Below, piece after piece: positions 4,232 to 57,821 of a stretch of DNA of 64,000 nucleotides (position 1 is the first letter of the stretch; each line of letters begins with the position of its first letter). Origin of the DNA: Candidatus Saccharimonadales bacterium. Its GTDB lineage: Bacteria > Patescibacteriota > Saccharimonadia > UBA4664 > DATIHN01. A model generated the notes under the pieces. It was given only the letters and a program-made list of their open reading frames with translations, searched no databases and was not told where the DNA came from. The DNA lies in contig DATIHN010000016.1 in NCBI GenBank assembly GCA_035480635.1, positions 76,017 through 140,016 on the forward strand, given 5' to 3'. Made by a program: the position numbers and the translations under genes.

Positions 4232-4678
4232 TCAGGAGACCTGACCTTCGTCTTCGGAGCCAACGGGTTTTCTGACTTGGGCTGGTGATCTTGGAGTTCT
4301 GGTGGACGCACCTTTCTCATAATCTAATACCTTCATACCACCTTCCACTGGTTTTACATTCTTGTCCTTCGAGGAATCATCTGTAAAATCAACGCCGAAC
4401 TTTGCTATATCACCAGATGCCTCGCCCATCTCCTTTTTAATTTGTTCAGCACTTTCTCCACGTTCGACCATTCTCTGCCCCACATTTTCTGCTAACTGGC
4501 TGGCTCTTTCGGCATAAGTTCCTGCCGCATTAGACCACTCAGCCATTTCTCGCCGTCTGGCTTCAGCCTCGGGACCACTGGCCTTTGCCACTTCTTCCAT
4601 AGCCTTGAACTTTGATTCATCAGGACTACCACTGGTAACCTCTTCTCCTTCAGGACCTGGCCCATCTTCTGCACCCAT
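4232..4678 (-). CDS. hypothetical acidic, low-complexity protein
   Basis: 148-aa ORF rich in E, G and A. No recognisable motif. Confidence 0.45.
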   Translation of the reverse strand: MGAEDGPGPEGEEVTSGSPDESKFKAMEEVAKASGPEAEARRREMAEWSNAAGTYAERASQLAENVGQRMVERGESAEQIKKEMGEASGDIAKFGVDFTDDSSKDKNVKPVEGGMKVLDYEKGASTRTPRSPAQVRKPVGSEDEGQVS

Positions 4679-29340: not shown

Positions 29341-29517
29341 TTAATAGGGCGAATTAGTGGTGGTACTTGAGTTGTTGTTGTGATTATGGACGTAGTAGTA
29401 GGCCACGCCAGCGTAAATGACGCCGCCGATGATGACATAGATTAGAATCCACTGCCATAGCGGCCGTTTGCCATAACCCTTTTTATACTCCGATTTGGGT
29501 TGATTTTCGTCTGCCAC
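29341..29517 (-). CDS. small TM peptide (58 aa, GTG start)
   Basis: AGGAGG-5nt-GTG on the minus strand. Translation VADENQPKSEYKKGYGKRPLWQWILIYVIIGGVIYAGVAYYYVHNHNNNSSTTTNSPY. Not in the ORF track. The overlapping 105-aa ORF 29121..29438 is judged spurious. Confidence 0.4.
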   Translation of the reverse strand: MADENQPKSEYKKGYGKRPLWQWILIYVIIGGVIYAGVAYYYVHNHNNNSSTTTNSPY

Positions 29518-32324: not shown

Positions 32325-32822
32325 CTACTTGCGTAGTGTAGCAATGAGTCTCTGTTGATCAATAAATAAATCAAGGGCGTCATTTATTGTCGGTACAACA
32401 ATATCTGAGCTCAATAGTGTTTGAACATGTACTCCCTCGGCTTGTAGGGTCACGATTCGAAGTTTTACGATCTTCATTAGCTCCAGGTCGATTAAGCCAT
32501 TGCCAATTGCGGCACATGCTTTTGGATCCAACTTAGCAGCCTGGTGACTTTTTTCAATTCCGTCCTTGGCTAAGCTCCAATCAATACCCAAGTCCCTAGC
32601 AACATCATCTGCATCACCACGTGTATTACCAGTAAAAAAGATCAGTTTAAATCCTTGGTCTTTCAGTTTGGCAAGCCGCTCCATTACGCCCTCGGGAATT
32701 TTCCCCCCGACAGTCAAAGTGCCGTTTAGGTCTAGGATGATTGTATTTATTTCAAATGAATTTTCACCTGGGATTTCATATATCATGCAACCATCATAGC
32801 AAACCGAATAATGCTTCAGCAT
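32325..32822 (-). CDS. HAD-superfamily phosphatase (KdsC/YrbI-like subfamily)
   Basis: Motif I DLNGT. KLIFFTGNTRGDADDVARDLGI… IGNGLIDLELMK. Confidence 0.55.
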   Translation of the reverse strand: MLKHYSVCYDGCMIYEIPGENSFEINTIILDLNGTLTVGGKIPEGVMERLAKLKDQGFKLIFFTGNTRGDADDVARDLGIDWSLAKDGIEKSHQAAKLDPKACAAIGNGLIDLELMKIVKLRIVTLQAEGVHVQTLLSSDIVVPTINDALDLFIDQQRLIATLRK

Positions 32823-33552
32823 TCTTGGTGGTAGCGACTGATAGCTCTTCGGCCGACTCCCCGCGCAAGTTGGCTAGGAACTCGGCGATGATTTTGGTGT
32901 GGGCTGGCTCGTTGCACTGACCGCGGTGGGGTGCCGGGGTTAGATAAGGACAGTCGGTTTCTAACAACATTCGATCAAGCGGGCAGGCTTTGGCTGCGGC
33001 CAACTGATATTGGTATTTAGTAAAGGTCATAATACCGTTATAACCTACGTAAAAACCCTGGTCCAAAACTTTATTCAACGTCGCCTCGTCTCCTGTAAAA
33101 CAGTGCACCACACCGCGAACACCTTTATAGTTCTCCAGCACCCGGAAAAAGTCGTCAAAGGCCTCGCGGACATGAAAAACTAGGGGTTTATCCACAGCCT
33201 GAGCAATGTCGATCTGGGCCTGAAAAGCCTTTATTTGATCCCTTTTAGGTGAGTGTTCATAGTAATAATCCAACCCACATTCGCCAATGGCTACGACTTT
33301 GGGGTTGGTGGCCAGGTCTTTAATAGCTTCAAGGGTTTTTTGGCTGAGTTTGGCATCATGCGGATGCAAGCCGACCGTGGCCCAAACGCTGTCATGACTA
33401 TTTGCTAGGTCGATAGCTAGTTTACTGTCATTATCGTCTACACCAATAGCGATGATTTTAGTCACGCCGGCCTCGACTGCCCTGGCCATGACCTCGTCGC
33501 GATCACTATCATAGACGTCCTGGTGAATATGGGCGTGGGTGTCGATGAGCAT
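32794..33552 (-). CDS. tatD: TatD-family metal-dependent DNase/hydrolase
   Basis: Canonical N-terminus MLIDTHAHI at M37 of the longer ORF, which uses a GTG at 33660. The upstream extension is low-complexity. Confidence 0.8.
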   Translation of the reverse strand: MLIDTHAHIHQDVYDSDRDEVMARAVEAGVTKIIAIGVDDNDSKLAIDLANSHDSVWATVGLHPHDAKLSQKTLEAIKDLATNPKVVAIGECGLDYYYEHSPKRDQIKAFQAQIDIAQAVDKPLVFHVREAFDDFFRVLENYKGVRGVVHCFTGDEATLNKVLDQGFYVGYNGIMTFTKYQYQLAAAKACPLDRMLLETDCPYLTPAPHRGQCNEPAHTKIIAEFLANLRGESAEELSVATTKNAEALFGLL

Positions 33553-33553
33553 G

Positions 33554-33934
33554 TTAGTTAAGGTTAAAATTCCACCACTTATATTTAACACCAGTTCTCT
33601 TAAGAGCTTTCTTCCATTTTCTGTATTCAAAGCCAAATCCACCTGCGTTTTTGCCTCCACCGCCTAAGTATTTTGGGTCAGTCAAAGAGACTACGAAGTT
33701 ATCGCTGGGAGTACGAAAGGTAAACCCCGAGGTAACAGAATTGGGACTAATAGTGATTTCTCTAGCTTTCAACTCAAACAGGAGCTTGCCATCATCAGAC
33801 AGCTGAATGATGCTGTTAGGCTGTATAGTCAATTGACCGGCTCTAAAGTGCCCTGCATACTGTGTGCCTGTTTCTGAACTTGGGGTTGACCCCCGAACCC
33901 ACCACACTGACGCTGATAATACGTTTTCAGGCAT
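33554..33934 (-). CDS. hypothetical 126-aa basic protein wedged between metG and tatD
   Basis: Its ATG overlaps the metG stop (ATGCCTGA). Its stop abuts the tatD ATG. Gly-rich and Lys/Trp-rich C-terminus (…GGGGKNAGGFGFEYRKWKKALKRTGVKYKWWNF). Confidence 0.45.
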   Translation of the reverse strand: MPENVLSASVWWVRGSTPSSETGTQYAGHFRAGQLTIQPNSIIQLSDDGKLLFELKAREITISPNSVTSGFTFRTPSDNFVVSLTDPKYLGGGGKNAGGFGFEYRKWKKALKRTGVKYKWWNFNLN

Positions 33935-35363
33935 TTGATTCCACTTTGGGGAAGAGAATCCCAACCGAGGTATCAACAGTTGAGCCACCAAGAGTTTTTT
34001 GGATTTTTTCGGCCGTGGTTGGCAAAAACGGTGCTAGCAAGCCAGTGATTTGAAGCAGATCAGAGATGATATGCTTTAAGACTTTTTCCAGCTGGTCTTT
34101 ATCGGTTTTTGCCAGCACCCAAGGTTTTTCCTCGTCAACCATCTGGTTGAGCCCGCGGATTTTGACCCAAATGTCTTTCAATGCCGCCTCAAAATGATAG
34201 TTTTCAATCGAATCTTCAATATCTTTGACGTCATGGGTGTGGGGTGGGTTGGCGCCAATCTGGCCGTCTAAATATTGCACTGCCATTTTGGCCACCCGTT
34301 GAACTAGGTTTCCGAGCTCGTTAGCCAAATTACTCTGGTAAACTTTGGACAGGCGGTCTTGGCTAAAGTTGCCGTCGGCACCAAAGGGGAATTCTGAGAG
34401 CAAATAGTAGCGTAAAGCATCGACCCCGTAAGTTTCGGAAATATCCAGTGGGTTAATGCCATTACCAAGTGATTTGGAAATTTTTTCGCCATCGACGGTA
34501 AAGAAGCCATGTGCCACCACCCGTTTGGGCAATTCCAACCCAGCACTTAAAAGCATGGCTGGCCAAATGATGCAATGAAACTTGATAATGTCTTTGCCGA
34601 TAACATGCAGATCCGCCGGCCACCAATCTTTGTAATCCGCTTTGGGATAGCCGACGCCAGTTAGATAGTTAATTAGAGCATCAACCCAAACGTAAACGAC
34701 TTGCGAGGGATCAAACGGCAGCTTGATACCAAGGGTTTGATTGGCCCGGCTGATGCTGATGTCTTCCAGACCGCGATCGATAAAGGCCAGCACCTCGTTG
34801 CGCCGGCTTTCAGGTTGGATGAAATCCGGGTGCTGATCGATGTGTTTTTTGAGCGCGTCTTGATATTTCGACAATTTGAAGAAGTAGTTTTCCTCCTTGA
34901 TGAATTCCGGCGGGGTTTTGTGAACCGGGCAGAGCCCCTCGATCAATTCGTCTTCTTTGTAAAACATTTCACATTTGTAGCAGTACAACCCCTCATAGAT
35001 GCCTTTGGTTATATCGCCGGCGGTGTGAATCTTGGTTACCACATCGCGCACGGCTGCCTCGTGGTCCGGCTCCGAAGTCCGGATGAAGCGATTGTAGCTA
35101 ATCCCTAGAGCATCCCAGGTGCTCTGCCACTGTTTGGCCATGGTGTTGGTGTAGGCTTCGATCTCTTGGCCAACCTCTTTGGCCGATTCGACGGTTTTTT
35201 TGGAGTTTTCGTCGGTGCCAGTTAAGAACCAAACCTTGTCTTTACCTAATTTAGCGCGCCAGTAGCGGGCCAAGACATCGGCTGCAATGGTATCGTAGGC
35301 ATGACCGATGTGCGGCTTGTCGTTGATATAAAAAATGGTGGTTGTAATGTAGTACTTAGTCAT
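33927..35363 (-). CDS. metG: methionyl-tRNA synthetase (short form)
   Basis: HIGH motif (KPHIGHAYDTI), KMSKS-like KISKSLGN and a Zn-knuckle CxxC. 478 aa. Confidence 0.9.
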   Translation of the reverse strand: MTKYYITTTIFYINDKPHIGHAYDTIAADVLARYWRAKLGKDKVWFLTGTDENSKKTVESAKEVGQEIEAYTNTMAKQWQSTWDALGISYNRFIRTSEPDHEAAVRDVVTKIHTAGDITKGIYEGLYCYKCEMFYKEDELIEGLCPVHKTPPEFIKEENYFFKLSKYQDALKKHIDQHPDFIQPESRRNEVLAFIDRGLEDISISRANQTLGIKLPFDPSQVVYVWVDALINYLTGVGYPKADYKDWWPADLHVIGKDIIKFHCIIWPAMLLSAGLELPKRVVAHGFFTVDGEKISKSLGNGINPLDISETYGVDALRYYLLSEFPFGADGNFSQDRLSKVYQSNLANELGNLVQRVAKMAVQYLDGQIGANPPHTHDVKDIEDSIENYHFEAALKDIWVKIRGLNQMVDEEKPWVLAKTDKDQLEKVLKHIISDLLQITGLLAPFLPTTAEKIQKTLGGSTVDTSVGILFPKVESNA

Positions 35364-37236
35364 GATCTTGTCGCTTAATTCCGGGGAGTCGGTGCGGCCG
35401 TAATCTTACCATAATAAGATAAGCCAAACCAAGTACGGCGCCAAGGGTGATGAGGCCGAGCGGCCAGTGGACAACCGAAACCGTTGCCTGGGCCATGACC
35501 AAACTGACAGCACCAGAGCTGCCCGTTAGTTGGGCAGTTTGGCTTTGATCGTGACCTAGGTCAAAACGAAAACGTCGAATGGTTTGACCGGGTGCCAAGT
35601 TACCGAAACCGACTTTATGATTTCCAACACTAACGCTATTGGCCGAGATGACCTGCTGGCTGGCATTACTCACACTGATCCGTTCCAGATTAATAAATGG
35701 CAAAATGCTATAGCGACTGAGGTGAAGCGAAACGGTTGCCAGCGTTTGTGGAGCCGCTTCGGCGTAGGTCAGGGTGGTTTGTTCGTATTGATAGCCAGTA
35801 TCCTGGCCGCCGGCCATCACCGGTACTGGCAGTTGATCGTTCCCACCCCAAACGGCAAAGGCAAAATGATCCAGATCGCTTTGACCAAATAGATCAAACT
35901 TTTCGCCCCACGTTGGATCCAGCGTCATCCAGCCAATGCCCGGCACGTAAGCCTCGACCCACGAATGCAAAGAATCGACTACGCTATCGGAAGCCTTTAA
36001 ATTGCCGCTGTAACCATAGCCAACTGGCATCCGAGCCGGAATGCCTTGGGCTCTAAGCAGCGCCACCAACAGATCCGAATATTCCAGACAAACCGCATTA
36101 GTCGGATTGGCTAAAGCTTTGGCTGCACCTTGGCGAATGTTGAATTTAATCTTGTCGGGGTTATAAGTTAAGTGATCAACCACATATTGGTAAGAGGCCC
36201 GAACGTTGTCGATGACCGGCGCATTAGGTTGGTTTATTTGTTTTGCTGCGGCCGCCACACTGCCATCGGTTTGCCAATACTTGGTACCCGCAGTATAAGT
36301 TTTGACCAAATCCGATGGGATATCGCTCTGCTTCCCGGAAGCCGCTAAGTTGTAATCTAGGTATTTGACCTCTCCCGTCACAAGCGTTTTGACAACCAAA
36401 TGGGTGCGGGCCGGCACGCGGTAGTCAGCCAAAATGTTGCCATCGGTATCCAATCGGGTACCAGCGGGCTTAGGATCAAGCGATTCAATTGTGATGTGTT
36501 GATTATTGAGGTTGGGTGGCAAGGTAATGGTCATGGTTTTGGCCAGTCTAGAATCATTATGAAGGGGGAAGTTAAAGTTGGCCTGATAGATCGTGGCATT
36601 GCCAAAACTAAGCGCTAGCGACTGGTTGGAAAGCGTTGATTGGTTAAAGTCGAAGTAGAGTCGGCCCGGCGAGGCTCCTGAGGCCGCCGGTTGAGCACCG
36701 CGAAAGTGGGGGGCGCCGAAGTCCTGTGGCACGTCGACTCTGGCAGTGTAGGCGCCAATACTAGCATCTTGGGCAATGGCCGGGACAAAGACGGTATGAG
36801 CACCACCATGGCTTTCGATTAAACCTGTGGCAGAATAACTCACCACAAAAGTCCAAGTTTTGCCGGAGCCAAAGTTCTGGCGAGGGAAGGCCAGCGTCAG
36901 TTGCTGGTAATTGTAAGGCACTCCGCTCTGGTTACTTTGGCTAGCTGCACTGGTTAAAGGGATATTGCCGCCATCGCTATAGTGAGCCTCGAGGCCGGAG
37001 ATAGTATCGACCGGTGTGGTTAGTTTGACTTGAGTTAAAAATTCCCGAGCCGTTTGGTTGGTAACGGTGTAAGTTTCCGTTACGGCCGTGGTAGTTGCAT
37101 TCTCCACCCGGTAAGTAATATGAGCGTTGAAGTTAAAGCTAGCCGCACTCGAAGTCCCGTGAGGCAAGATCGACGTAACCAACAAGGCCAAAGCTATTAG
37201 AACCGTAAATCGCCGAATCTGGGCTAGGACTTTCAC
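35356..37236 (-). CDS. secreted transglutaminase-like cysteine-protease-family protein with a C-terminal TM anchor
   Basis: Signal peptide. Transglutaminase-core region NAVCLEYSDLLVALLRAQGIPARMPVGYGY. C-terminal TM followed by a basic tail. Confidence 0.65.
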   Translation of the reverse strand: MKVLAQIRRFTVLIALALLVTSILPHGTSSAASFNFNAHITYRVENATTTAVTETYTVTNQTAREFLTQVKLTTPVDTISGLEAHYSDGGNIPLTSAASQSNQSGVPYNYQQLTLAFPRQNFGSGKTWTFVVSYSATGLIESHGGAHTVFVPAIAQDASIGAYTARVDVPQDFGAPHFRGAQPAASGASPGRLYFDFNQSTLSNQSLALSFGNATIYQANFNFPLHNDSRLAKTMTITLPPNLNNQHITIESLDPKPAGTRLDTDGNILADYRVPARTHLVVKTLVTGEVKYLDYNLAASGKQSDIPSDLVKTYTAGTKYWQTDGSVAAAAKQINQPNAPVIDNVRASYQYVVDHLTYNPDKIKFNIRQGAAKALANPTNAVCLEYSDLLVALLRAQGIPARMPVGYGYSGNLKASDSVVDSLHSWVEAYVPGIGWMTLDPTWGEKFDLFGQSDLDHFAFAVWGGNDQLPVPVMAGGQDTGYQYEQTTLTYAEAAPQTLATVSLHLSRYSILPFINLERISVSNASQQVISANSVSVGNHKVGFGNLAPGQTIRRFRFDLGHDQSQTAQLTGSSGAVSLVMAQATVSVVHWPLGLITLGAVLGLAYLIMVRLRPHRLPGIKRQDHD

Positions 37237-37322
37237 CTTATTATTCTATCAAACTGCTTGCGCTTTGCTTGACATTACGAAATCTGGAGTCATAATAAAG
37301 CATAAGAATTAAAAGAAACATT

Positions 37323-37910
37323 ATGCCAAAAACTAAAACCAAACCAAACGGATTCAATCTCGCGCGAAAGTTAAACTTTAGTAAGAGCCAGCTGGCCGCT
37401 ATCATTGCAGCCGGTGTGGCTATCGGCGGCTTTGTGGCTTATCAAACTTTTGCCGCCACAGTACCACCGTCAAATCTAAGGCAAACCATATCTGGTGGCG
37501 CTGGCGGAGGCGGTGTGACAACTATTAGCACATGGGTTATTAACACAGTTTCGGCCACTCCTTATGGGGCAGCCACACCAGCTCTTAACATGAAAAATTC
37601 TGATCCTCACTACTGGCAAACAGGCAATTGGAATTTTTCTACGGGGTTCAATAAAACATCCGACTACTTGAAGTCGCTAACAAGCGATGGGTGGCCCAAG
37701 TCAAACACGTTTCTTTGTGGTAATTCAAATAGCTACTTCTATGGCATGGGGCCACTGCAAACCCCCTACGGACCATTGTACTTTGGCCAAGTCTACCGGC
37801 TCTACAACAACAAGTGGCAAGTCAAATGGGCCAATTACAGCACTGTTACCAAAGGTTGTTCGACATCAACGAATTGGATGGACGTAACTCCTGGACCCGG
37901 GAACCTGTAA
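37323..37910 (+). CDS. secreted hypothetical protein, paralog A (conserved MPKTKTK leader)
   Basis: The N-terminal 45 aa are shared with the downstream gene at both protein and DNA level (first 22 nt identical). The C-terminus is Asn/Tyr/Trp-rich. Confidence 0.6.
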   Translation: MPKTKTKPNGFNLARKLNFSKSQLAAIIAAGVAIGGFVAYQTFAATVPPSNLRQTISGGAGGGGVTTISTWVINTVSATPYGAATPALNMKNSDPHYWQTGNWNFSTGFNKTSDYLKSLTSDGWPKSNTFLCGNSNSYFYGMGPLQTPYGPLYFGQVYRLYNNKWQVKWANYSTVTKGCSTSTNWMDVTPGPGNL

Positions 37911-37945
37911 TTCGATAATCCAGAAATAAGGAGGTTATTTACCTT

Positions 37946-38473
37946 ATGCCAAAAACTAAAACCAAATCGAACGGGTTAAATCTTACCAAGCGCTTAAACT
38001 TCAATAAGGGGCAGCTGATCGCTATCATTGTGGCTGGTGTGGTCATTGGCGGCTACGTGGCCTACAAAACCTTTGCGGCCGGTCCGGCCACAGTTACGGG
38101 CTGTAAAACTCGAGTTAATGACCCAACTTATGGGCCACTAATATATGTCCACTTTACGGTTCGAAAATATGACCCAGATATGAATATCGCAGTCGCTTAT
38201 AAAGCCGATAAGATTAAGACCTACAGTAACGGCTACGTTATTGATCGCTCGGGCAACTGGTCGATTATTCAGCAGAGCGGTTTTAACAGTAATAATCGAG
38301 CCTATATGAACGGTGTTGATGGCAGTGTTGTCGACGACCCCTACTGGGAAGTCGATCTATTTAAGCCTGGGTGGCATTGGGGGTCTTACGCTCACCATGT
38401 AAGTTGGTTACCGTTTTGCGGTACCAGTGGCTCGCCGAGGAACATCTACATCGACTGGGGTCATTCGACCTAG
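37946..38473 (+). CDS. secreted hypothetical protein, paralog B (conserved MPKTKTK leader)
   Basis: Same leader plus TM. Unrelated C-terminal domain. RBS AAGGAGG before the ATG. Confidence 0.6.
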   Translation: MPKTKTKSNGLNLTKRLNFNKGQLIAIIVAGVVIGGYVAYKTFAAGPATVTGCKTRVNDPTYGPLIYVHFTVRKYDPDMNIAVAYKADKIKTYSNGYVIDRSGNWSIIQQSGFNSNNRAYMNGVDGSVVDDPYWEVDLFKPGWHWGSYAHHVSWLPFCGTSGSPRNIYIDWGHST

Positions 38474-39384
38474 TCTTTTTTGCGAACTAGGCTAGGTAGG
38501 GGCGTGCGTTTTTCGCCCCCTTCCTTTTCGCCTTTATGAACATGGCCGCCCCATTTAGGCAGCAAGCTAGCGGCAAAGAGCAGGGCGCCAACAGCCGCCA
38601 ATCCGATCATGGTAAATAGTAAGCGCTGAGCTACACCGGCGGCCGATAGAGCCACCAGATTATTGACCGAAGTTGTCAGCGGGTTGCCGCTGCCAGCCTT
38701 GGCCAGCTGATGCGAGGCTAGGTTGGGTATCATTCTAAGCAGAAAGTAATAAGCGCCCAGCCAAGCTAGGGAGTAGATACAGCCGCGGCCCAGTGAGCGC
38801 CAGCGGTTGTGAGTAGCTGTTAAAACGACTAGAGCTGCCAGCACCAGGCTAGCCAGCGCCAGCAGCCATTTGCTCTGGGCGACGCGGCTAAGCCAGGGAC
38901 TGACGGTGGGATTGCGACTGGAGGCAGTTGAAGCTGGCGTTTGGTTGGAGCTAGAACCGTTGGTCGAATCTTGTTGAGCACCAGGTTGGATCATTAGCTT
39001 CTGACTCAGGCTAGCGGCTTGTTCGGCTGAAAGGTGAACTCCCAAAGATTCGACTTGCAGCACGATGCCGGATAGATCCAAGGTTGGCACCGTTCCACCC
39101 TGGCGATAGGTCTGCTCCAGTGCATGCAAATACTGATCAATATTGGTGCGCAGATATTGGGCCGTTACAACCTTAGTTAAGGCGGCTTGCAAAGTGGGGT
39201 CGCTCTGATTATCGGCGATGGCTTTGGGTAGTTGCTGGGCCAGAGTGTCATAAACCCCCGATTTATCGGCTTGAGCGGCCACAAAATCAGCCTTCAAAAT
39301 GGTTGAATCAAGGCAAAAGGCCATGATGGCACCAGACAAGCTGACAGCAAACAAGGCGATGAAAAATTTATTCAAGAAATTCAT
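38470..39384 (-). CDS. hypothetical polytopic membrane protein
   Basis: Start placed at MNFLNKFF, whose ATG overlaps the ksgA stop (ATGA coupling). Multiple TM helices. Confidence 0.55.
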   Translation of the reverse strand: MNFLNKFFIALFAVSLSGAIMAFCLDSTILKADFVAAQADKSGVYDTLAQQLPKAIADNQSDPTLQAALTKVVTAQYLRTNIDQYLHALEQTYRQGGTVPTLDLSGIVLQVESLGVHLSAEQAASLSQKLMIQPGAQQDSTNGSSSNQTPASTASSRNPTVSPWLSRVAQSKWLLALASLVLAALVVLTATHNRWRSLGRGCIYSLAWLGAYYFLLRMIPNLASHQLAKAGSGNPLTTSVNNLVALSAAGVAQRLLFTMIGLAAVGALLFAASLLPKWGGHVHKGEKEGGEKRTPLPSLVRKKD

Positions 39385-40220
39385 ACGAGGTTGTGGGCGG
39401 TGGCGGCTTGGTAGAGCCGGTGCCAATCGGCCAGAGCTAATTCTTGGGCCCGCTGAGTTGGGCTAACTTTGGCCTGACGTAAAACAGCCAGGATGACGCT
39501 AGAATCGGCGTTTAGTCCTCCGGCCAGGGCGTTTTTGAGTTGTTTGCGGCGCTCACCAAAACCGGCTTTTATCAAACGAAAGAGGCGAGTTGGTTCAGCC
39601 GGGAAAGCCTGTTGCGGGCGGCGATTTAAGCTCAGTACGGCCGAATCAACTTTGGGAGCCGGCCAAAACTTGTGCCTCTCAATCACCCCCACCATTTTAG
39701 CATAAGCGTAATATTGAACACTCAAAGCTAGGATCGACATTTGCCCGGGACTGGCCACGATCCGTTCGGCCACTTCTTTTTGGACCAAGATCGACATAGC
39801 AGCCGGTGGATTTGGGCTTTCTAATAACAACCGTAGTAATTTGGAGGTTAAATAGTAGGGGATGTTCGCCACCACTTTATAATCAGTTGGAAGCGTCTGG
39901 AGATTAAAAACCATGATGTCTCCTGAGACAATTGTTAGATTAGCGGGCGGTTGTTGACCCAGAATTTGGACCAAATCGGGATCGGCCTCAACGCAAGTCA
40001 CGGCCTTGGCCAGGGCACATATTTTAGAGGTTAAAAAGCCAATCCCCGGCCCGATTTCTAGGATCGTATCGCTGGTTTTGATGGTGGCAGCTGCCACAAC
40101 CATATCCAGGCTCGGTTCATCAATTAAAAAATTTTGACCCAAACTTTTTTTGGGGTGAATATTGGCCAAGCGAACAGCTAGTTCGGTGTTGTGATTTGAC
40201 GATAGGGGAGGCGGCTTCAT
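39381..40220 (-). CDS. rsmA: 16S rRNA (adenine1518/1519-N6)-dimethyltransferase RsmA/KsgA
   Basis: LGQNFLIDEPSLDMVV N-terminus. SAM-binding motif EIGPGIGFLT. NIPY motif. Confidence 0.9.
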   Translation of the reverse strand: MKPPPLSSNHNTELAVRLANIHPKKSLGQNFLIDEPSLDMVVAAATIKTSDTILEIGPGIGFLTSKICALAKAVTCVEADPDLVQILGQQPPANLTIVSGDIMVFNLQTLPTDYKVVANIPYYLTSKLLRLLLESPNPPAAMSILVQKEVAERIVASPGQMSILALSVQYYAYAKMVGVIERHKFWPAPKVDSAVLSLNRRPQQAFPAEPTRLFRLIKAGFGERRKQLKNALAGGLNADSSVILAVLRQAKVSPTQRAQELALADWHRLYQAATAHNLV

Positions 40221-40295
40221 CTCCCCTACTCTACCCTATTTAGGGTCTTTTAATAAGTTAAAGGCGGCTCCGTAGAGCCGCCGGTTGGTCGCTTT

Positions 40296-40604
40296 TCAGG
40301 CGACTTCTGGGCTGAGTTGGTTTTGCCGATGGTTATCGGCGATGGCTTCGCGCATCAGTCGACGACCCTCACAAGTCATGCGGAAACAGAGACCGTCGCC
40401 TTCTTCTAGGAACCCATTGATGACCAGTTCCCGAAGCACCTCTGGGGTGATGCCTCTGATCTCGGCCGCGTAGACACAGTGGTCGTCAAAGACCAGTATC
40501 CCGCCTCTGTCAGGCTTACACCATTGCAGCCAACCGTCACCCGGTTGGATGTAAAAGATCTCCAGCGCGGTTTGTTGGATCAATTCCTCGGTCAGTGCCA
40601 TCAT
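40296..40604 (-). CDS. small winged-helix-like protein (102 aa), paralog of the ORF at 40838-41161
   Basis: Start MMALTEEL overlaps the stop of an upstream 33-aa peptide (ATGATG/TGA). C-terminal GFLEEGDGLCFRMTCEGRRLMREAI resembles a wHTH wing (Y/FRxT..G..L). A Rho-independent terminator follows at 40264-40284. Confidence 0.45.
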   Translation of the reverse strand: MMALTEELIQQTALEIFYIQPGDGWLQWCKPDRGGILVFDDHCVYAAEIRGITPEVLRELVINGFLEEGDGLCFRMTCEGRRLMREAIADNHRQNQLSPEVA

Positions 40605-40702
40605 CGAACCGCCATGACGCGCTTGAAGCTGGCAACGGCGTAGATGGCCGAAATTGCCAGGGCTGATGCAGTACCTGCGACTGTCCACTTGACCACCTTC
40701 AT
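40601..40702 (-). CDS. putative 33-aa hydrophobic peptide MKVVKWTVAGTASALAISAIYAVASFKRVMAVR
   Basis: Strong RBS AGGGGGAAAC-ATG. Stop overlaps the next start. Confidence 0.3.
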   Translation of the reverse strand: MKVVKWTVAGTASALAISAIYAVASFKRVMAVR

Positions 40703-40712
40703 GTTTCCCCCT

Positions 40713-40823
40713 TCACTTGTGGAGTAAGCGCGGAAATCGCGGCTGATCGTTATCGAAGAAATCGATGATTGGTCCCAAAACCAATCCGACCGTCATAACC
40801 GCAGCCAGTGCCGCTACCGACAT
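40713..40823 (-). CDS. putative 36-aa hydrophobic peptide MSVAALAAVMTVGLVLGPIIDFFDNDQPRFPRLLHK
   Basis: GAGAGG RBS 10 nt upstream. Reading frame read manually. Below the ORF-track size cutoff. Confidence 0.3.
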   Translation of the reverse strand: MSVAALAAVMTVGLVLGPIIDFFDNDQPRFPRLLHK

Positions 40824-40837
40824 CACCAATTTGCCTC

Positions 40838-41161
40838 TCACGATCGCGCCTTAGAACGAACCGCCCTCTTGTGAGCTGCTTTGGTCATACGGTAATGGCA
40901 GTCCGGTTTGGCCTCCAAAACGCCGGCTTGTATCAGGTGAACGACAGGCCGCATTGTCATACTCAGCAGTAGTTCAGAACCGTCGTAGAAACCAGGGCCC
41001 TGCGGGCCGCTGTATATATAGCGGATGAGGGTGCCAGCAGGATGAGATGAGAAAAGTTGGATGATTTGACGTTCGGCGCCCTCGTCGCGCGGATCCTGGC
41101 TGGAATCAACCCCCGCATCACTCCACTCCACGCCGTCGTAATAGAAGCCCGAGGCCGTCAT
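40838..41161 (-). CDS. small winged-helix-like protein (107 aa), paralog of 40296-40604
   Basis: C-terminal …GVLEAKPDCHYRMTKAAHKRAVRS aligns with …GFLEEGDGLCFRMTCEGRRLMREA of the paralog. Confidence 0.45.
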   Translation of the reverse strand: MTASGFYYDGVEWSDAGVDSSQDPRDEGAERQIIQLFSSHPAGTLIRYIYSGPQGPGFYDGSELLLSMTMRPVVHLIQAGVLEAKPDCHYRMTKAAHKRAVRSKARS

Positions 41162-41164
41162 TGA

Positions 41165-41290
41165 TCAGCCCCTTCCTGAGTCATAGGCCGCCAGCGCATT
41201 CAAGAGCATGGCACTGGCGATCGAGCCAGCACCAACCAGGGCCAAACCGAAGATGCACGTTCGGGTAGTGATGATAAAGCCCTTCTTCAC
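41165..41290 (-). CDS. putative 41-aa hydrophobic peptide (GTG start) VKKGFIITTRTCIFGLALVGAGSIASAMLLNALAAYDSGRG
   Basis: GGGGGTAAAAA-GTG RBS. Stop TGA sits 4 nt before the ATG of the 107-aa gene (GGAAGGGGCTGATCAATG). Confidence 0.3.
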   Translation of the reverse strand: MKKGFIITTRTCIFGLALVGAGSIASAMLLNALAAYDSGRG

Positions 41291-41400
41291 TTTTTACCCC
41301 CATGCTACCGAATGGTATGCCAGCCATTGTGCAACTTTACAAATAAATAATCAAGACTTTTCGGATCCGAGAGCTTACCCTCGGATCCTAGTCACCACCC

Positions 41401-41721
41401 TTAAGCAGTGACGAAGCTGGCGGCCGGCACGTCGTAGGTCGAATGGTTGATCATCACTCGCCCCAAGTAGCGGTGGTACGGGCTGTAGCGACCAGGTTCG
41501 CGGGTGTGTTCAATCAGCAGACCATTCAGTCGGTAACCATCCGGCGCCACTAGCAATTGATCACAGTTGGCAACCAACTGGTCCGCGGTCCCAGCAATTT
41601 GGACTAAGAACTCATCCCCAGGCAACAGCCGAACTACGTCGACTGCCACTCTGACTGTTCCGAGCTTTGGCATGATCCGCCGACAGGCCGGCTCACTGCC
41701 CTTAACTAGAACTTGGGTCAC
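41401..41721 (-). CDS. hypothetical protein (106 aa)
   Basis: ORF only. Relatively high GC. No motif recognised. Confidence 0.45.
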   Translation of the reverse strand: MTQVLVKGSEPACRRIMPKLGTVRVAVDVVRLLPGDEFLVQIAGTADQLVANCDQLLVAPDGYRLNGLLIEHTREPGRYSPYHRYLGRVMINHSTYDVPAASFVTA

Positions 41722-41847
41722 TCTATCCCCTTTTGTTGGTACGAACTTAGATAAGTTACTTTGATTATATTCGGTTTTTGTTCGGTTTGTAAAGAGTTTT
41801 TCTCAAATAAATTTCCCTCACTCGGGAAGGCATTCTAACTTCTCTCC

Positions 41848-41925
41848 CCACCAATTTTTTATGTAAGCTCTTATTTCTTACCCCTGTAATACTTTGTATG
41901 GCCGTCGATACAAAAAAATTGGTGG
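41848..41925 (+). repeat. H1 hairpin repeat, copy a (forward)
   Basis: ccaccaattttttatgtaagc…[~40-nt loop]…cgatacaaaaaaattggtgg. A 13-14-bp stem including a 6-7-bp A:T run. Confidence 0.7.
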
Positions 41926-41951
41926 GGCTTGTTTCTTTTCTAGATCATCTT

Positions 41952-42004
41952 GAGCAGATTGCTCAGTCTATATCTCCCCTTACTTAGTTCTTCGCAATCT
42001 GCTG
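41952..42004 (+). repeat. H2 hairpin repeat, copy a (forward)
   Basis: gagcagattgc…[31-nt loop containing ctcccc]…gcaatctgctg. A 10-bp stem. Confidence 0.7.
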
Positions 42005-42055
42005 TTTGGATTTAATAAATACACTCTTCTAGCTGAGGTCTGAATTACTCCATTT

Positions 42056-42108
42056 AGCAGGTTGTGAGGGGTTTGGTAGTGGGAGAAAGTAAGCGAACAA
42101 CCTGCTCC
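42056..42108 (+). repeat. H2 hairpin repeat, variant copy b (reverse orientation, compensatory stem changes)
   Basis: cagcaggttg…gtagtgggagaaag…caacctgctc. A-to-G and T-to-C changes on opposite arms keep the stem paired. Confidence 0.65.
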
Positions 42109-42130
42109 TATTGATCCAAAAGATAAACTC

Positions 42131-42213
42131 CCCAGCCCATTTTTTTGTATCGACTAAGTTAGTAGTCGTAATGGGAGTATGAAGAGTCAGCTTACACAAA
42201 AAATGGGCTGGGG
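42131..42213 (+). repeat. H1 hairpin repeat, copy b (reverse orientation); it ends 20 nt downstream of the rpf stop
   Basis: cccagcccatttttttgtatcgac…gcttacacaaaaaatgggctgg. The ~100-nt block 42113-42215 is nearly identical to 50150-50252. Confidence 0.7.
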
Positions 42214-42232
42214 GGAGAAGTTAGTACCTGGT

Positions 42233-43387
42233 TTAAATAAGCCCGAGCTTGACGGAGCAGACCGGCCAGGGCGACCAGCCACGGCGGGCCTGAACGACTT
42301 TGGCAATCGCATCTTGAGTCGCGGGATCAGCGTCGCTTGGCAAACCGGTGCCGCCGTTTGATTGCCAGGTACCCAGATCGAACTGGTAGGCGCCATAATA
42401 ACCATTGCCGCTGTTACGGGTATAATTATTACCTGTTTCACAAACCCGCAAACGATACCAAACATCATCCCGAATCTTGGTACCGACATGAATCACTCGA
42501 TTGACGGGATTCACCAGATTGGCCACATTCAAAACTTGGCGCTGAACCTCAATGCCATCGTGATAATTAATTTTATAGGTCACATCGCGGCCGCCAACGC
42601 TACCTGCTTCGACCACTCGGCTCTCGCCCTGGTACATCGAATCATCACGAACGGTCTGAATATGATTAGCTAGATCCTCATGTTTAGTTACAACGACTTC
42701 CGTCACCCGAGTGATGGTAATGTTTTCGCCCGGCACAATTTGATTGCTCAATGGCACCGAGGTCGTATCTTGCTCCCCCATCGGTATGTGCTTTTCTTGC
42801 AATAAGCCAGCCACCGTAGTGGCTTGGGTCCGCAGTTGTCTAGTGGCGCCGTCAACGCTCAAGACCACTGGTTTGGCCCGTTTGACTACGACCTTTTCGC
42901 CCACCGTCCCATCGCCAACGAAGTTGGTCACGAAAGCATCGCTAAATTGGTCCTCGGGGTAGGTGTTAATCCCGGCATCCCCCGTGATCAAGCGCGGACT
43001 GCCATGCGGAGAATCAACCATCTTTTCGGTCGTGCCGTCTTGAACTAAAACTGGTCGGGCTCGGTACACGTTGATATTAAAGAAGCCAGTTGGAATTTGA
43101 GTGTTAGCAGCCGGCTCTACCAGATCGTGCGGTCCCAGTTTGGAATTTGTTCGCGCCAAAACTTCGCCCACGGTACTAGCGTCGGTCGTAAAGATGCGCT
43201 TTTGGCCATCCGCAAAGTAGCTAACCACCTTGGCCGAGTCGGCGTAGGCGCGACCCGTGGTGGGTAGTTTTCCGGCTAAGATTGCGTAAGTAACGATAAT
43301 GATGAGAATGCCGACCAAACCGTAGATGCGTGGTGCTGTCGGCACCCGGCCCCGGTGGGACCGATTGGTGTTGCCTAAAATCGACAA
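42233..43387 (-). CDS. resuscitation-promoting factor, RpfB-like (TM anchor, DUF348-like repeats, G5 domain, C-terminal Rpf transglycosylase-like domain)
   Basis: C-terminal WYRLRVCETGNNYTRNSGNGYYGAYQFDLGTW is the Rpf lysozyme-like signature with the catalytic Glu. TTG start. Confidence 0.75.
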   Translation of the reverse strand: MSILGNTNRSHRGRVPTAPRIYGLVGILIIIVTYAILAGKLPTTGRAYADSAKVVSYFADGQKRIFTTDASTVGEVLARTNSKLGPHDLVEPAANTQIPTGFFNINVYRARPVLVQDGTTEKMVDSPHGSPRLITGDAGINTYPEDQFSDAFVTNFVGDGTVGEKVVVKRAKPVVLSVDGATRQLRTQATTVAGLLQEKHIPMGEQDTTSVPLSNQIVPGENITITRVTEVVVTKHEDLANHIQTVRDDSMYQGESRVVEAGSVGGRDVTYKINYHDGIEVQRQVLNVANLVNPVNRVIHVGTKIRDDVWYRLRVCETGNNYTRNSGNGYYGAYQFDLGTWQSNGGTGLPSDADPATQDAIAKVVQARRGWSPWPVCSVKLGLI

Positions 43388-48810: not shown

Positions 48811-48914
48811 GCGAATGCATCGATGGTTCTACCCACCCAGAACGCCAACATGATGCGCTCATGCTAATAAATTTGCAAGACTTTCAGACGGCAACCAACC
48901 TAAGCCATTTTCCC

Positions 48915-48993
48915 TAGCCCATTTTTTATGTAAGCTCTCATTTCCTACTACCATAACCATTCGTGCTTATGTCGATACAAAAAAATGGGCTAG
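48915..48993 (+). repeat. H1 hairpin repeat, copy c (forward)
   Basis: tagcccattttttatgtaagc…gtcgatacaaaaaaatgggcta. The outer stem covaries relative to copy a (ccaccaa/ttggtgg becomes agcccat/atgggct). Confidence 0.7.
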
Positions 48994-49017
48994 GGTGTAT
49001 ATCTTTTAGATCATCTG

Positions 49018-50156: not shown

Positions 50157-50169
50157 AAAAGATAAACTA

Positions 50170-50250
50170 CCCAGCCCATTTTTTTGTATCGACTAAGTTA
50201 GTAATCGTAATGGGAGTAGGAAGAGAGAGCTTACACAAAAAATGGGCTGG
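50170..50250 (+). repeat. H1 hairpin repeat, copy d (reverse orientation); it ends 10 nt downstream of the pgk stop
   Basis: cccagcccatttttttgtatcgac…gcttacacaaaaaatgggctgg. Confidence 0.7.
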
Positions 50251-50259
50251 AAGAAGAGC

Positions 50260-57650: not shown

Positions 57651-57821
57651 ATGGGAAGAATCGAAGAACTGATCATTGTTTTCCTGATCATCCTTTTGCT
57701 CTTCGGTGCCAAGCGGATTCCGCAACTGGCCCGGAGCATTGGTCAATCGATCAATGAGGTCAAGAAGGGTGTCGCAGAGGGGAGCCCCAAAGACGACGAT
57801 CAAGACAAAAAGTCGTCATAG
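57651..57821 (+). CDS. tatA: twin-arginine translocase subunit TatA/E
   Basis: Not in the ORF track (56 aa). MGRIEELIIVFLIILLLFGAKRIPQLARSIGQSINEVKKG… is the canonical TatA TM plus amphipathic helix. AGGGAG RBS. A hairpin terminator follows. Confidence 0.8.
   Translation: MGRIEELIIVFLIILLLFGAKRIPQLARSIGQSINEVKKGVAEGSPKDDDQDKKSS

What the first reader, a model, noticed from the sequence alone, without database searches (positions are those of the whole stretch)
40285..41760. Accessory micro-operons: tiny hydrophobic peptides translationally coupled to paralogous ~100-aa winged-helix-like proteins
Downstream of core ksgA and separated from it by a terminator, the minus strand carries a higher-GC block. 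The 102-aa and 107-aa proteins are paralogs, with shared C-terminal motif [IL]xxGxLEE..D..C.[FY]RMT…R reminiscent of a wHTH wing. Each is immediately preceded by one or two very short hydrophobic single-TM peptides of 33, 36 and 41 aa. Each peptide has a strong SD and overlapping stop/start junctions (ATGATG/TGA, TGATCAATG). The architecture resembles small membrane-toxin/regulator (type-I/II TA-like) or bacteriocin-immunity modules. The peptides fall below standard ORF cut-offs, so they are easily missed.
Basis: inference. Interest (0 to 1): 0.6.

Follow-up and report, generated by a model that had tools for sequence, protein, structure and literature searches.

The report
Orphan small-membrane-peptide operon upstream of ksgA
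A Saccharimonadales (TM7) bacterium carries, between a cell-wall hydrolase gene and ksgA, a tightly packed operon of three tiny membrane peptides and three ~100-residue proteins that match nothing in public databases, so the genes look real but their function remains a guess.

Summary
The ORFs, stop/start junctions, Shine-Dalgarno sites, raised GC and terminator are all present, and together they exceed chance.

**What is there**
- The minus strand reads: promoter-like site, A (106 aa), a hairpin, then p41(TM)-B(107 aa)-p42/p36(TM)-p33(TM)-C(102 aa) with gaps of 10 nt or less, then a terminator and ksgA.
- GenBank already annotates two of the peptides, and another assembly annotates the third.

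**Homology**
- A, B and C are orphans. They have no relatives among 5.8 billion proteins. A full HMMER scan of 1.84 billion representatives (C only) found none. Pfam, PHROGs, NCBIfam, PADLOC, PDB and the phage, plasmid and viral collections also gave nothing.
- B/C paralogy is not established: the local alignment is at chance level and the global alignment gives p=0.03.
- The winged-helix idea has only weak support: low-confidence AlphaFold models and non-significant Foldseek lists dominated by wHTH proteins.

**Relatives**
- Relatives with 50-59% KsgA identity lack the block.
- The closest relative (68%) has, at the same site, three different TM peptides, a coupled acidic 102-aa protein and the same terminator with compensatory stem changes. 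No protein similarity is detectable.

**Verdict**
This is a clade-specific, hypervariable small-protein cassette, probably membrane-associated. The toxin-antitoxin and bacteriocin readings are unsupported. Interest is modest.

The parts
41764..41793 (-). Sigma-70-like promoter candidate (TTTACA-18-TATAAT, 11 of 12 matches), 43 nt upstream of gene A
   Evidence: This is a consensus match only; the total number of such sites in the region is not above the shuffle expectation.
41401..41721 (-). Gene A: a 106-aa soluble orphan protein with a GTG start and an AAGGGG SD
   Evidence: Searches give the ORF. It has the best in-frame codon score of the block, 0.255 nats per codon. SD energy is -7.1. Its only database match is itself, VLE72_02360. 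Residues 20-56 give a weak, non-significant match to the N-terminus of cohesin 1aoh (E=0.68).
41363..41388 (-). Stable stem-loop (GGATCCGAGgg-taag-ctCTCGGATCC), 12 nt after the stop of A, with no clear U-tract. It could be a partial terminator, an mRNA-stability hairpin or an operator-like palindrome.
   Evidence: One search gives the sequence. folds the A-p41 spacer at -35.3 kcal/mol (z=-3.4).
41165..41290 (-). p41: a 41-aa single-pass membrane peptide (MKKGFIITTR followed by a 24-residue hydrophobic stretch). It is in the same frame as B, separated only by TGA-TCA.
   Evidence: Searches give the ORF. KD19 is 2.11 and SD energy is -9.8. It is annotated as HSX14729.1 / VLE72_02355. The frame relation is visible.
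40838..41161 (-). Gene B: a 107-aa soluble orphan protein. Its C-terminal motif LIQAGVLEAKPDCHYRMT is predicted as helix, beta-hairpin, helix.
   Evidence: Searches give the ORF. Its only database match is itself. Codon score is 0.161. The AlphaFold model has pLDDT 46. The Foldseek list is wHTH-rich but non-significant.
40713..40841 (-). p42: a single-pass membrane peptide. It is 42 aa from the GTG that overlaps the stop of B (GTGA), or 36 aa from ATG 40823.
   Evidence: Searches give the ORF. KD19 is 2.36. SD energy for the ATG start is -5.8. PGAP annotates the 42-aa form as HSX14727.1 / VLE72_02345.
40601..40702 (-). p33: a 33-aa cationic (+5) single-pass membrane peptide. Its stop overlaps the start of C (ATGA).
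   Evidence: Searches give the ORF. KD19 is 1.67. SD energy is -10.1, in the top 0.9%. Its reading frame beats the alternative upstream extension of C by 0.61 nats per codon. It is called as a gene in GCA_964637125.1.
40296..40604 (-). Gene C: a 102-aa acidic (net -8) soluble orphan protein. Its motif LVINGFLEEGDGLCFRMT is predicted as helix, beta-hairpin, long helix.
   Evidence: Searches give the ORF. Its only match among 5.8 billion proteins is itself. In 1.84 billion representatives it finds itself plus two repeat-inflated false hits. The AlphaFold model has pLDDT 52, rising to 63-71 over residues 50-95.
40263..40282 (-). Intrinsic-terminator-like hairpin (GGCGGCTC-tacg-GAGCCGCC followed by TTTAAC) that ends the operon before the ksgA leader
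   Evidence: It is conserved in L086 with two compensatory base-pair changes.

Best explanation
**What it is.** A real, clade-specific and very fast-evolving small-protein operon. It sits in a variable slot between the rpfB/yabE-like cell-wall hydrolase gene and ksgA in one Saccharimonadales lineage.

**Layout.** A promoter-like site precedes A, a 106-aa soluble protein. After a stable hairpin comes a translationally coupled array: p41 (TM), B (107 aa), p42 (TM), p33 (TM) and C (102 aa, acidic). An intrinsic terminator closes the unit.

**Proposed products.** The three peptides insert as single-pass membrane proteins, N-terminus inside. B and C are soluble proteins whose C-terminal thirds resemble the recognition helix and wing of a winged helix.

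**Proposed mechanism.** Overlapping stop/start codons enforce co-production. I therefore infer that each soluble protein acts together with its preceding membrane peptide as a membrane-associated complex. The most likely form is a small membrane partner that tethers or sequesters a small winged-helix-type regulator or adaptor, which feeds back on the operon. The biological role is probably at the cell envelope or host interface, and probably under diversifying selection.

**Shown:**
- the ORFs, SD sites and coupling;
- the hydrophobicity of the peptides;
- a coding-like codon bias;
- the accessory status;
- a positional analogue with the same architecture in the closest relative;
- the conserved terminator.

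**Inferred:** translation, complex formation, nucleic-acid binding, regulation and the biological role.
For: **Coding signal**
- Three same-strand ORFs of at least 100 aa occur in 0.8% of shuffles.
- The in-frame codon log-likelihood is positive for A, B and C.

**Translation signals**
- SD strengths for p33, p41, B and A fall in the top 1-6% of start-codon sites.
- Every junction in the p41-to-C array is 10 nt or less, or overlapping.

**Membrane peptides**
- The KD19 scores are 1.67-2.36, a level reached by 7.9% of short ORFs in the window.
- Three of the five non-genic TM-plus-SD small ORFs in the window are in this block, and one of the other two is the genuine gene TatA.

**Independent gene calls**
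- Independent annotation pipelines call all six genes.

**Evolution**
- rpf abuts ksgA directly in L006 and L007.
- The closest relative, L086 (KsgA 68% identical), has in the same slot three TM proteins with SD energies of -8.4 to -11.8. They are followed by a GTGA-coupled acidic 102-aa protein and the same terminator with two compensatory stem changes.
- The cassette has higher GC than its flanks in both genomes.

**Fold hints**
- The AlphaFold secondary-structure elements of B and C match at an offset of +16 to +20 residues.
- The Foldseek top lists for both models are dominated by winged-helix proteins.
- The L086 protein qC gives a weak HemN_C match, which by my own knowledge belongs to the HTH clan (E=0.15).
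Against: - There is no expression or proteomic evidence.
- There is no homologue for A, B or C anywhere.
- No sequence polymorphism is available, because all public contigs are 100% identical to the window. Purifying selection therefore cannot be tested.
- C and its positional analogue qC show no sequence similarity (z about 0). The two cassettes could be independent insertions rather than diverged orthologues.
- The winged-helix evidence is entirely sub-significant, and the models have mean pLDDT of only 46-52.
- C's codon score barely beats one antisense frame (0.04 nats per codon).
- The peptides are too short for codon statistics.
- The promoter scan as a whole is not enriched over shuffles.
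Confidence: 0.45

Rival explanations
1. Toxin-antitoxin or bacteriocin-immunity module. The hydrophobic peptides would be membrane-damaging toxins or secreted antimicrobial peptides. B and C would be the cognate DNA-binding antitoxins, regulators or immunity proteins.
For: - The peptides are small, hydrophobic and cationic (net charge +2 to +5) and are coupled to small soluble proteins.
- The cassette is hypervariable at a fixed locus, as expected for conflict systems.
- It is tightly operonic and has its own terminator.
Against: - PADLOC, Pfam, PHROGs and NCBIfam give no match for any of the six products.
- No plus-strand promoter-like site lies within the block, so there is no candidate type I antisense RNA.
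- The peptides have very strong SDs, and three occur in tandem, which is unlike tightly repressed toxins.
- The peptides have no double-glycine leader.
- No C39 or ABC exporter gene is among the neighbours.
- The gene order, peptide before soluble partner, is not the usual type II order (my own knowledge).
Confidence: 0.15
2. Gene fission or decay. B, and perhaps C, would be the soluble domain of a formerly membrane-anchored protein whose gene was split by a nonsense mutation. The 'peptides' would be orphaned N-terminal anchors, and the block would be partly pseudogenised.
For: - p41 and B are in the same frame, separated only by TGA-TCA.
- p42 and C are also in one frame, with a single TGA between p42 and the open upstream extension of C.
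- L086 carries what looks like a frameshifted relic of a fourth TM peptide (MKK...VLVLLGGIVAVLLAGRA, about 4245-4320).
- TGA is a genuine stop codon in this genome, used by 9 of 39 long ORFs.
Against: - A strong SD and an ATG sit exactly at the start of B (-7.7), and p33 has the strongest SD of all.
- The linker between p42 and C is better explained as p33 coding sequence in another frame (0.61 nats per codon).
- Being in frame has a 1-in-3 chance for each pair.
- Five independent assemblies give identical sequence, so assembly error is not the explanation.
- In L086 the pairs are in different frames.
Confidence: 0.15
3. No function. The block would be recently acquired or fast-drifting spacer DNA in a recombination-prone slot, and its ORFs would be fortuitous or proto-genes.
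For: - A, B and C are complete orphans.
- There is no detectable conservation with the L086 cassette.
- The AlphaFold confidence is low.
- GC-rich DNA produces long ORFs easily: 80% of shuffles contain at least one ORF of 100 aa or more.
Against: - Three such ORFs on one strand occur in only 0.8% of shuffles.
- The frame-specific codon bias matches the host genes.
- SD motifs sit at the correct spacing before five of the six starts.
- The hydrophobic peptides exactly fill the gaps between the larger ORFs.
- The same architecture recurs in L086 together with a conserved terminator.
Confidence: 0.1

Closest known systems
Small winged-helix regulators of about 100-120 aa (PadR-s2, ArsR/SmtB and MarR-type recognition helix plus wing)
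   Same: - The size is about 100 aa.
- The C-terminal motif L-x3-G-[FVL]-[LV]-E followed by a short hairpin and [FY]-R-M-T resembles the recognition-helix-to-wing segment (my own knowledge).
- The predicted helix, beta-hairpin, helix order fits.
- The weak Foldseek lists are dominated by these families.
   Different: - There is no significant sequence or structure match.
- The N-terminal halves are predicted as beta or coil rather than as helices H1-H2.
- C is strongly acidic (net -8), which is unusual for a DNA binder.
Small single-pass membrane proteins that modulate larger partners (for example MgrB, AcrZ, KdpF, MgtS; named from my own knowledge)
   Same: They are 30-50 aa long, with one TM helix, a basic N-terminus and strong translation signals. 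They are frequently under-annotated.
   Different: The known examples are usually solitary genes or sit in operons with their target transporter or kinase. Here three occur in tandem, coupled to small soluble orphans, and no obvious membrane target is encoded nearby.
Type I and type V toxin-antitoxin systems with small membrane toxins (Hok/Sok, TisB/IstR, GhoT/GhoS; named from my own knowledge)
   Same: A small hydrophobic peptide lies next to a ~100-aa partner (GhoS is 98 aa). Translational coupling is also known for hok/mok.
   Different: There is no antisense-RNA signal, no PADLOC or Pfam hit, strong constitutive-looking SDs, three peptides rather than one, and the gene order differs.
The conserved yabE/rpfB-ksgA neighbourhood of Firmicutes and Actinobacteria (B. 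subtilis metS-yabD-yabE-rnmV-ksgA; M. tuberculosis rpfB-ksgA-ispE; from my own knowledge)
   Same: The window has MetRS, TatD, a DUF348-G5-transglycosylase protein and KsgA in the same neighbourhood. The slot between the hydrolase gene and ksgA is also occupied by an extra gene in Bacillus.
   Different: The occupant here is an orphan small-protein cassette, not rnmV. It is found only in the window genome and, in a different sequence form, in L086.

Membership tests
Winged helix-turn-helix DNA-binding superfamily (Pfam HTH clan) | Significant match to an HTH-clan profile or to a solved wHTH protein by sequence | tested here: not met
   Pfam gives no family for B or C at E<=10. PDB phmmer finds no wHTH protein at E<=10.
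Winged helix-turn-helix DNA-binding superfamily (Pfam HTH clan) | Three-helix bundle followed by a beta-hairpin wing in the structure | tested here: inconclusive
   The AlphaFold single-sequence models have pLDDT 52 (C) and 46 (B), and each shows helix, hairpin, helix at the motif. The best Foldseek E-values are 0.055 and 1.7, yet the lists are dominated by MarR, PadR, GntR, IdeR and eS19. Helices H1-H2 are not predicted.
Winged helix-turn-helix DNA-binding superfamily (Pfam HTH clan) | Sequence-specific nucleic-acid binding | not testable with these tools
   This needs EMSA or ChIP. Candidate sites are the palindrome at 41388..41363 and the promoter region at 41793..41764.
B and C as paralogues of one family | Pairwise similarity above chance | tested here: inconclusive
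   BLASTP gives E=2.6. Smith-Waterman gives z=0.24, p=0.37. The global alignment gives z=2.08, p=0.029, and the secondary-structure elements match at an offset of +16 to +20.
Type I toxin-antitoxin | Small hydrophobic toxin ORF of fewer than 60 aa | tested here: met
   p41, p42 and p33 have KD19 scores of 2.11, 2.36 and 1.67.
Type I toxin-antitoxin | Overlapping or adjacent antisense RNA gene with its own promoter, and restrained toxin translation | tested here: not met
   No plus-strand promoter-like site lies inside 40285-41760. No Rfam hit was found there. The toxin candidates have the strongest SDs in the block.
Type II toxin-antitoxin and other known defence systems | Match of either partner to a known toxin, antitoxin or defence protein family | tested here: not met
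   PADLOC, Pfam and NCBIfam give no hits for any of the six products.
Class II bacteriocin with immunity protein | Double-glycine leader (or a leaderless amphipathic cationic peptide), a dedicated exporter nearby, and a known immunity family | tested here: not met
   The peptides have no GG leader (one search lists the sequences). The neighbours are PGK, TIM, UvrD, Rpf, KsgA, a transglutaminase-core protein and MetRS, with no ABC or C39 gene. No immunity Pfam family matched.
Phage holin or lysis cassette | Match to phage protein families, or phage context | tested here: not met
   PHROGs gives nothing below E=0.05. There are no relatives in IMG/VR. There is no DNA match in phage or plasmid records.

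The most novel reading that the evidence does not exclude
The slot between rpfB and ksgA in this Saccharimonadales clade may hold a previously undescribed type of small-protein system. It would consist of tandem single-pass membrane peptides, each translationally coupled to a ~100-aa winged-helix-like soluble partner.

The architecture would be maintained: the number of peptides, the coupled acidic 102-aa last gene and the terminator. The sequences would turn over so fast that orthologues at 68% KsgA identity are unrecognisable. That pattern would point to diversifying selection on a host-interaction, self/non-self or phage-exclusion function in an episymbiotic CPR bacterium.
Probability: 0.15. 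Interest if true: 0.6.

Novelty: new variant of a known kind. Interest (0 to 1): 0.3.

Why it matters
If the products are made, this is a compact example of the small-protein 'dark matter' of CPR/Saccharibacteria genomes. It encodes three membrane micro-proteins and three orphan ~100-aa proteins in about 1.5 kb.

The closest relative has a positional analogue with the same architecture but no sequence similarity. That makes the locus a tractable place to ask two questions:
- Are such cassettes fast-evolving conflict or host-interface modules, or decaying insertions?
- Do small winged-helix-like proteins get controlled by micro-membrane partners?

As it stands, this is an uncharacterised orphan operon, not a demonstrated new mechanism.

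Tried and rejected
1. **Homology searches, all empty.**
   - The search for homologous proteins for C, B and A returned only the query itself.
   - Full HMMER of C against 1.84 billion representatives returned itself plus two false positives. One is a 939-aa tandem-repeat protein and the other a fish immunoglobulin-repeat protein, and their scores are sums over repeats.
   - Pfam, PHROGs, NCBIfam and PADLOC gave nothing.
   - PDB sequence searches gave only a nanobody at E=0.21 for C, nothing for B, and cohesin at E=0.68 for A.
   - IMG/VR scans were empty.
   - blastn of the 2-kb block against phage and plasmid records found nothing.
   - tblastn against 160 related loci and the rest of the window gave a best hit of E=0.035 in L033. 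That hit lies inside an unrelated 460-aa protein, and the L081 hit is not in an ORF.
2. **Population variation.** All five public contigs are 100% identical to the window, so no dN/dS estimate is possible.
3. **Bridging C to the L086 protein qC.** Smith-Waterman, global alignment and hydropathy-profile correlation were all at chance level. MAFFT alignments of B, C and qC were not credible, so I did not use them as profiles.
5. **Genome-wide UGA recoding** as an explanation for p41-TGA-B. Rejected, because TGA ends 9 of 39 long ORFs.
6. **Type IV prepilin leader** for p41 (MKKGF...). Rejected: there is no G-F-T-L-I-E-type motif in p41 or anywhere else in the window.
7. **The 130-aa extension of C from GTG 40688.** Rejected in favour of p33, on codon statistics (0.61 nats per codon) and on both public gene calls.
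8. **Literature searches.** No described system with this architecture turned up.
Full report
**Anatomy**

On the minus strand of 40263-41793 the sequence reads as follows.

1. A sigma-70-like site, TTTACA-18-TATAAT, at 41793..41764.
2. Gene A: 106 aa, GTG start at 41721, ending at 41401.
3. An 11-bp stem-loop at 41388..41363, which starts 12 nt after the stop of A. The spacer folds at -35.3 kcal/mol (z=-3.4).
4. A five-ORF array with almost no spacing:
   - p41 (41 aa, 41290..41165);
   - B (107 aa, 41161..40838), which starts 3 nt after the p41 stop (TGATCAATG);
   - p42 (40841..40713), whose GTG overlaps the stop of B as GTGA, or a 36-aa form from ATG 40823;
   - p33 (40702..40601), 10 nt further on;
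   - C (102 aa, 40604..40296), whose ATG overlaps the p33 stop as ATGA.
5. A terminator-like hairpin, GGCGGCTC-tacg-GAGCCGCC followed by TTTAAC, at 40282..40263.
6. ksgA, starting at 40220.

The block, however, lies upstream of ksgA in the direction of transcription. The order is rpf-like gene (43387..42233), block, ksgA. A third ~100-aa gene, A, lies inside the stated coordinates but was not described.

The organism is a Candidatus Saccharimonadales MAG (VLE72_ locus tags; also GCA_964637125.1).

**Is it more than chance?**

- Three non-overlapping same-strand ORFs of at least 100 aa occur in 0.8% of dinucleotide shuffles of the block. The opposite strand has no ORF above 67 aa.
- A codon model trained on 30 long ORFs of the window favours the annotated frame for A (0.255 nats per codon over the best alternative), B (0.161) and, weakly, C (0.041). 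The peptides are too short to decide.
- In the segment where p33 overlaps the possible upstream extension of C, the p33 frame wins by 0.61 nats per codon.
- Anti-SD duplex energies are -10.1 (p33), -9.8 (p41), -7.7 (B) and -7.1 (A). These fall in the top 0.9-5.6% of all 3,428 ATG/GTG sites. p36 (-5.8) and C (-6.0) are ordinary, and C relies on the ATGA overlap.
- Each peptide has a 19-residue Kyte-Doolittle maximum of at least 1.6 (2.11, 2.36 and 1.67), a level reached by 7.9% of the 419 short ORFs in the window.
- A window-wide screen for non-genic small ORFs with both a TM segment and an SD returns only p41, p36, a 58-aa ORF at 29341..29517 and TatA at 57651..57821. p33 was masked in that screen by the extended C ORF. 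The criteria therefore pick out a known real gene, and the block holds three of the five such ORFs.
- Block GC is 0.547 against 0.505 +/- 0.021 for window tiles, the 99.4th percentile.
- The peptides are not unannotated. PGAP calls p41 (HSX14729.1) and p42 (HSX14727.1), and the other assembly calls p33.

**Orphan status**

- C, B and A each retrieve only themselves from 5.8 billion proteins.
- A full HMMER scan of C against 1.84 billion cluster representatives returns C itself and two long repeat proteins. One is a 939-aa tandem-repeat protein and the other a fish immunoglobulin-repeat protein. Their scores are sums over repeats, so they are not homologues.
- Pfam, PHROGs, NCBIfam and PADLOC give nothing for any of the six products.
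- The PDB sequence searches give nothing meaningful.
- IMG/VR has no relatives, and phage and plasmid records have no DNA match.
- All five public contigs that carry the block are 100% identical to the window over up to 4.2 kb, so selection cannot be measured.

**Evolutionary context**

I used KsgA as an anchor to fetch relatives.

| Locus | KsgA identity | Between rpf and ksgA |
|---|---|---|
| L006 | 59% | 43 nt, no terminator |
| L007 | 55% | 91 nt, no terminator |
| L008 | 50% | one antisense 91-aa membrane-protein gene (my reading: GlsB/YeaQ-like) |
| L086 (JGI Ga0265338_10000744) | 68% | a 1.37-kb cassette with the same architecture |

The L086 cassette consists of:
- q77: TM, SD -10.5;
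- q75: TM, TAATG overlap, SD -11.8;
- an apparent frameshifted relic of a further TM peptide;
- q71: TM, SD -8.4;
- qC: exactly 102 aa, net charge -6, with a GTGA overlap onto q71.

Independent gene callers recorded exactly these products.

DNA homology between the two genomes stops inside rpf, at window 42504 / L086 3280. It resumes only at the terminator and the ksgA leader. The terminator stems differ by two compensatory base pairs (GGCGGCTC/GAGCCGCC against GGCGGTCC/GGACCGCC).

Despite this, C and qC, and the two sets of peptides, show no similarity above chance (Smith-Waterman z=-0.39, global z=0.39). The cassette GC exceeds the flanks in both genomes (0.547 against 0.505, and 0.576 against 0.540).

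The slot and its terminator are therefore a shared derived feature of this small clade. Its content has either diverged beyond recognition or been replaced by something built the same way.

**Paralogy and fold of B and C**

Its score is at chance level (BLASTP E=2.6; Smith-Waterman z=0.24, p=0.37).
- A global alignment is marginal (z=2.08, p=0.029).
- The single-sequence AlphaFold models are poor (mean pLDDT 52 for C, with 63-71 over residues 50-95, and 46 for B).
- Both models nevertheless place a helix, a beta-hairpin and a helix over the motif, with elements matching at an offset of +16 to +20 residues.
- Foldseek against the PDB finds nothing at E<=0.001. The top of both lists is dominated by winged-helix proteins:
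  - for C: PecS, MftR, MarR, OhrR, MosR, LmrR, GntR-type regulators, Sso10a, MotA and eS10;
  - for B: IdeR/DtxR, MarR, HucR, GntR-type regulators, eS19 and the DnrK N-terminal domain, with 30-35 aligned columns at about 1.4 A.
- qC has a sub-threshold HemN_C match at its equivalent segment (E=0.15). By my own knowledge, HemN_C belongs to the HTH clan.

I read this as weak and consistent but non-significant support for a winged-helix-like C-terminal element. Membership of any HTH family was tested and not met.

**The peptides**

- All three have a basic N-terminus (MKKGFIITTR, MRGK, MKVVK) followed by 20-25 hydrophobic residues and a short tail. By the positive-inside rule this suggests N-terminus-in single-pass insertion; this is an inference.
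- p41 and B share a reading frame, separated by TGA-TCA.
- p42 and C also share a frame, with a single TGA between them. The stretch between p42 and C is better explained as p33 coding sequence.
- TGA is a genuine stop codon here.
- This keeps a gene-fission or decay scenario alive for p41-B. The strong SD and ATG exactly at the start of B argue for two products.

**Mechanism**

The best-supported reading has four parts.
- The genes are real.
- They form one or two transcription units bounded by a promoter-like site and a conserved terminator.
- Their products are three micro-membrane proteins and three small soluble proteins.
- The stop/start overlaps (p33/C here, q71/qC in L086) enforce co-production, as is usual for proteins that work as complexes.

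I therefore favour membrane-associated peptide-protein pairs, in which a small membrane partner tethers or controls a small winged-helix-like protein that may autoregulate the operon. The position next to a cell-wall hydrolase gene, and the hypervariability, suggest a role at the cell envelope or host interface. Everything beyond the ORFs, signals, hydrophobicity and synteny is inference (overall confidence 0.45).

Rival explanations:
- **Toxin-antitoxin or bacteriocin-immunity (0.15).** No family hits, no antisense promoter, strong SDs, no leader peptide and no exporter gene.
- **Gene fission or pseudogenisation (0.15).** Supported by the in-frame TGA arrangements and the relic in L086.
- **Non-functional ORFs (0.1).** Argued against by the combined statistics and the recurring architecture.

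**Comparison with known systems, and novelty**

The block resembles, without belonging to, three known kinds of system:
- small wHTH regulators;
- small membrane-protein modulators;
- membrane-toxin TA pairs.

The neighbourhood (MetRS, TatD, a DUF348-G5 hydrolase and KsgA) mirrors the Bacillus metS-yabD-yabE-rnmV-ksgA and mycobacterial rpfB-ksgA arrangements (my own knowledge). The occupant of the slot is unique. The literature searches found no described counterpart.

I classify it as a new variant of a known general kind, namely small-protein operons that pair micro-membrane proteins with small soluble partners. I do so with low confidence, because no function has been demonstrated.

Interest is modest (0.3). 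Orphan small genes are common in CPR genomes, but the conservation of architecture without sequence conservation at a fixed locus is a worthwhile lead.

Noticed in passing
window 41845-41928, 42130-42213, 48912-48995, 50169-50252: A family of oriented hairpin repeats, about 85-110 nt long, lies in intergenic DNA. The arms are CCCCAGCCCATTTTTTnTGTA / TACAnAAAAAATGGGCTGGGG with about 45 nt between them, followed by a GT-TTATCTTTT-GAT tail.
- There are four copies in the window, against 0.59 arm matches expected by chance.
- Folding z-scores range from -4.1 to -7.1.
- Of 21 predicted pairs, 4 show compensatory double changes and none is broken.
- Two inverted copies sit in the AT-rich 460-nt spacer between rpf and gene A. 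The other two flank tpiA.
- Rfam has no match. The element is absent from 164 other loci and from IMG/VR.
- It could be a REP/MITE-like element or a long-stem terminator.
   Followed up: partly
window 42233-42504 (3' end of the rpf-like gene), compared with L086:3280-3611: The catalytic domain of the DUF348-G5 hydrolase differs among close relatives. The window and L008 carry an Rpf-type Transglycosylas domain (PF06737, 70 and 57 bits). L086, L006 and L007 carry an SLT-like domain (PF01464, 20-25 bits). DNA homology with L086 ends at the junction between G5 and the catalytic domain. The variable segment therefore spans the catalytic domain as well as the cassette.
   Followed up: partly
window 41929-42129: The 200-nt AT-rich stretch between the two inverted hairpin repeats contains further palindromes, for example AGCAGGTTGT...ACAACCTGCT and GAGCAGATTGCTC. 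It has no convincing ORF and no Rfam match at E<=1.
   Followed up: no
window 41161-41290 and 40296-40841: p41 and B are in one reading frame, separated only by TGA-TCA. p42 and C are also in one frame, with a single TGA between p42 and the open upstream extension of C. This could be chance (one in three for each pair) or a trace of gene fission.
   Followed up: partly
L086:4245-4320: An ATG after an A-run is followed, in a shifted frame, by ...RVLVLLGGIVAVLLAGRA-stop. This looks like a frameshifted relic, or an assembly error, of a fourth small TM peptide in the relative's cassette.
   Followed up: no
window 41401-41721 (gene A): Residues 20-56 (LGTVRVAVDVVRLLPGDEFLVQIAGTADQLVANCDQL) align with the first strands of the cohesin domain 1aoh, but the match is not significant (E=0.68). 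The 294- and 328-aa proteins upstream in L008 look cohesin-like by eye; I did not test this.
   Followed up: no
window 29341-29517 (-): A 58-aa ORF (MADENQPKSEYKKGYGKRPLWQWILIYVIIGGVIYAGVAYYYVHNH...) has one TM segment and a very strong SD (-10.9 kcal/mol). It lies outside any long ORF and is probably a real small membrane protein.
   Followed up: no
window 41869 (contig ends of L002-L004): Three independent Logan assemblies of SRR9179560-62 break at the same base, inside hairpin repeat copy 1. This is consistent with the repeat being multi-copy in the genome.
   Followed up: no
window 32794-43387: MetRS, TatD, the DUF348-G5 hydrolase and KsgA lie in one neighbourhood. This recalls the Bacillus metS-yabD-yabE-rnmV-ksgA and mycobacterial rpfB-ksgA-ispE arrangements. 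The gene content is; the comparison is from my own knowledge.
   Followed up: no
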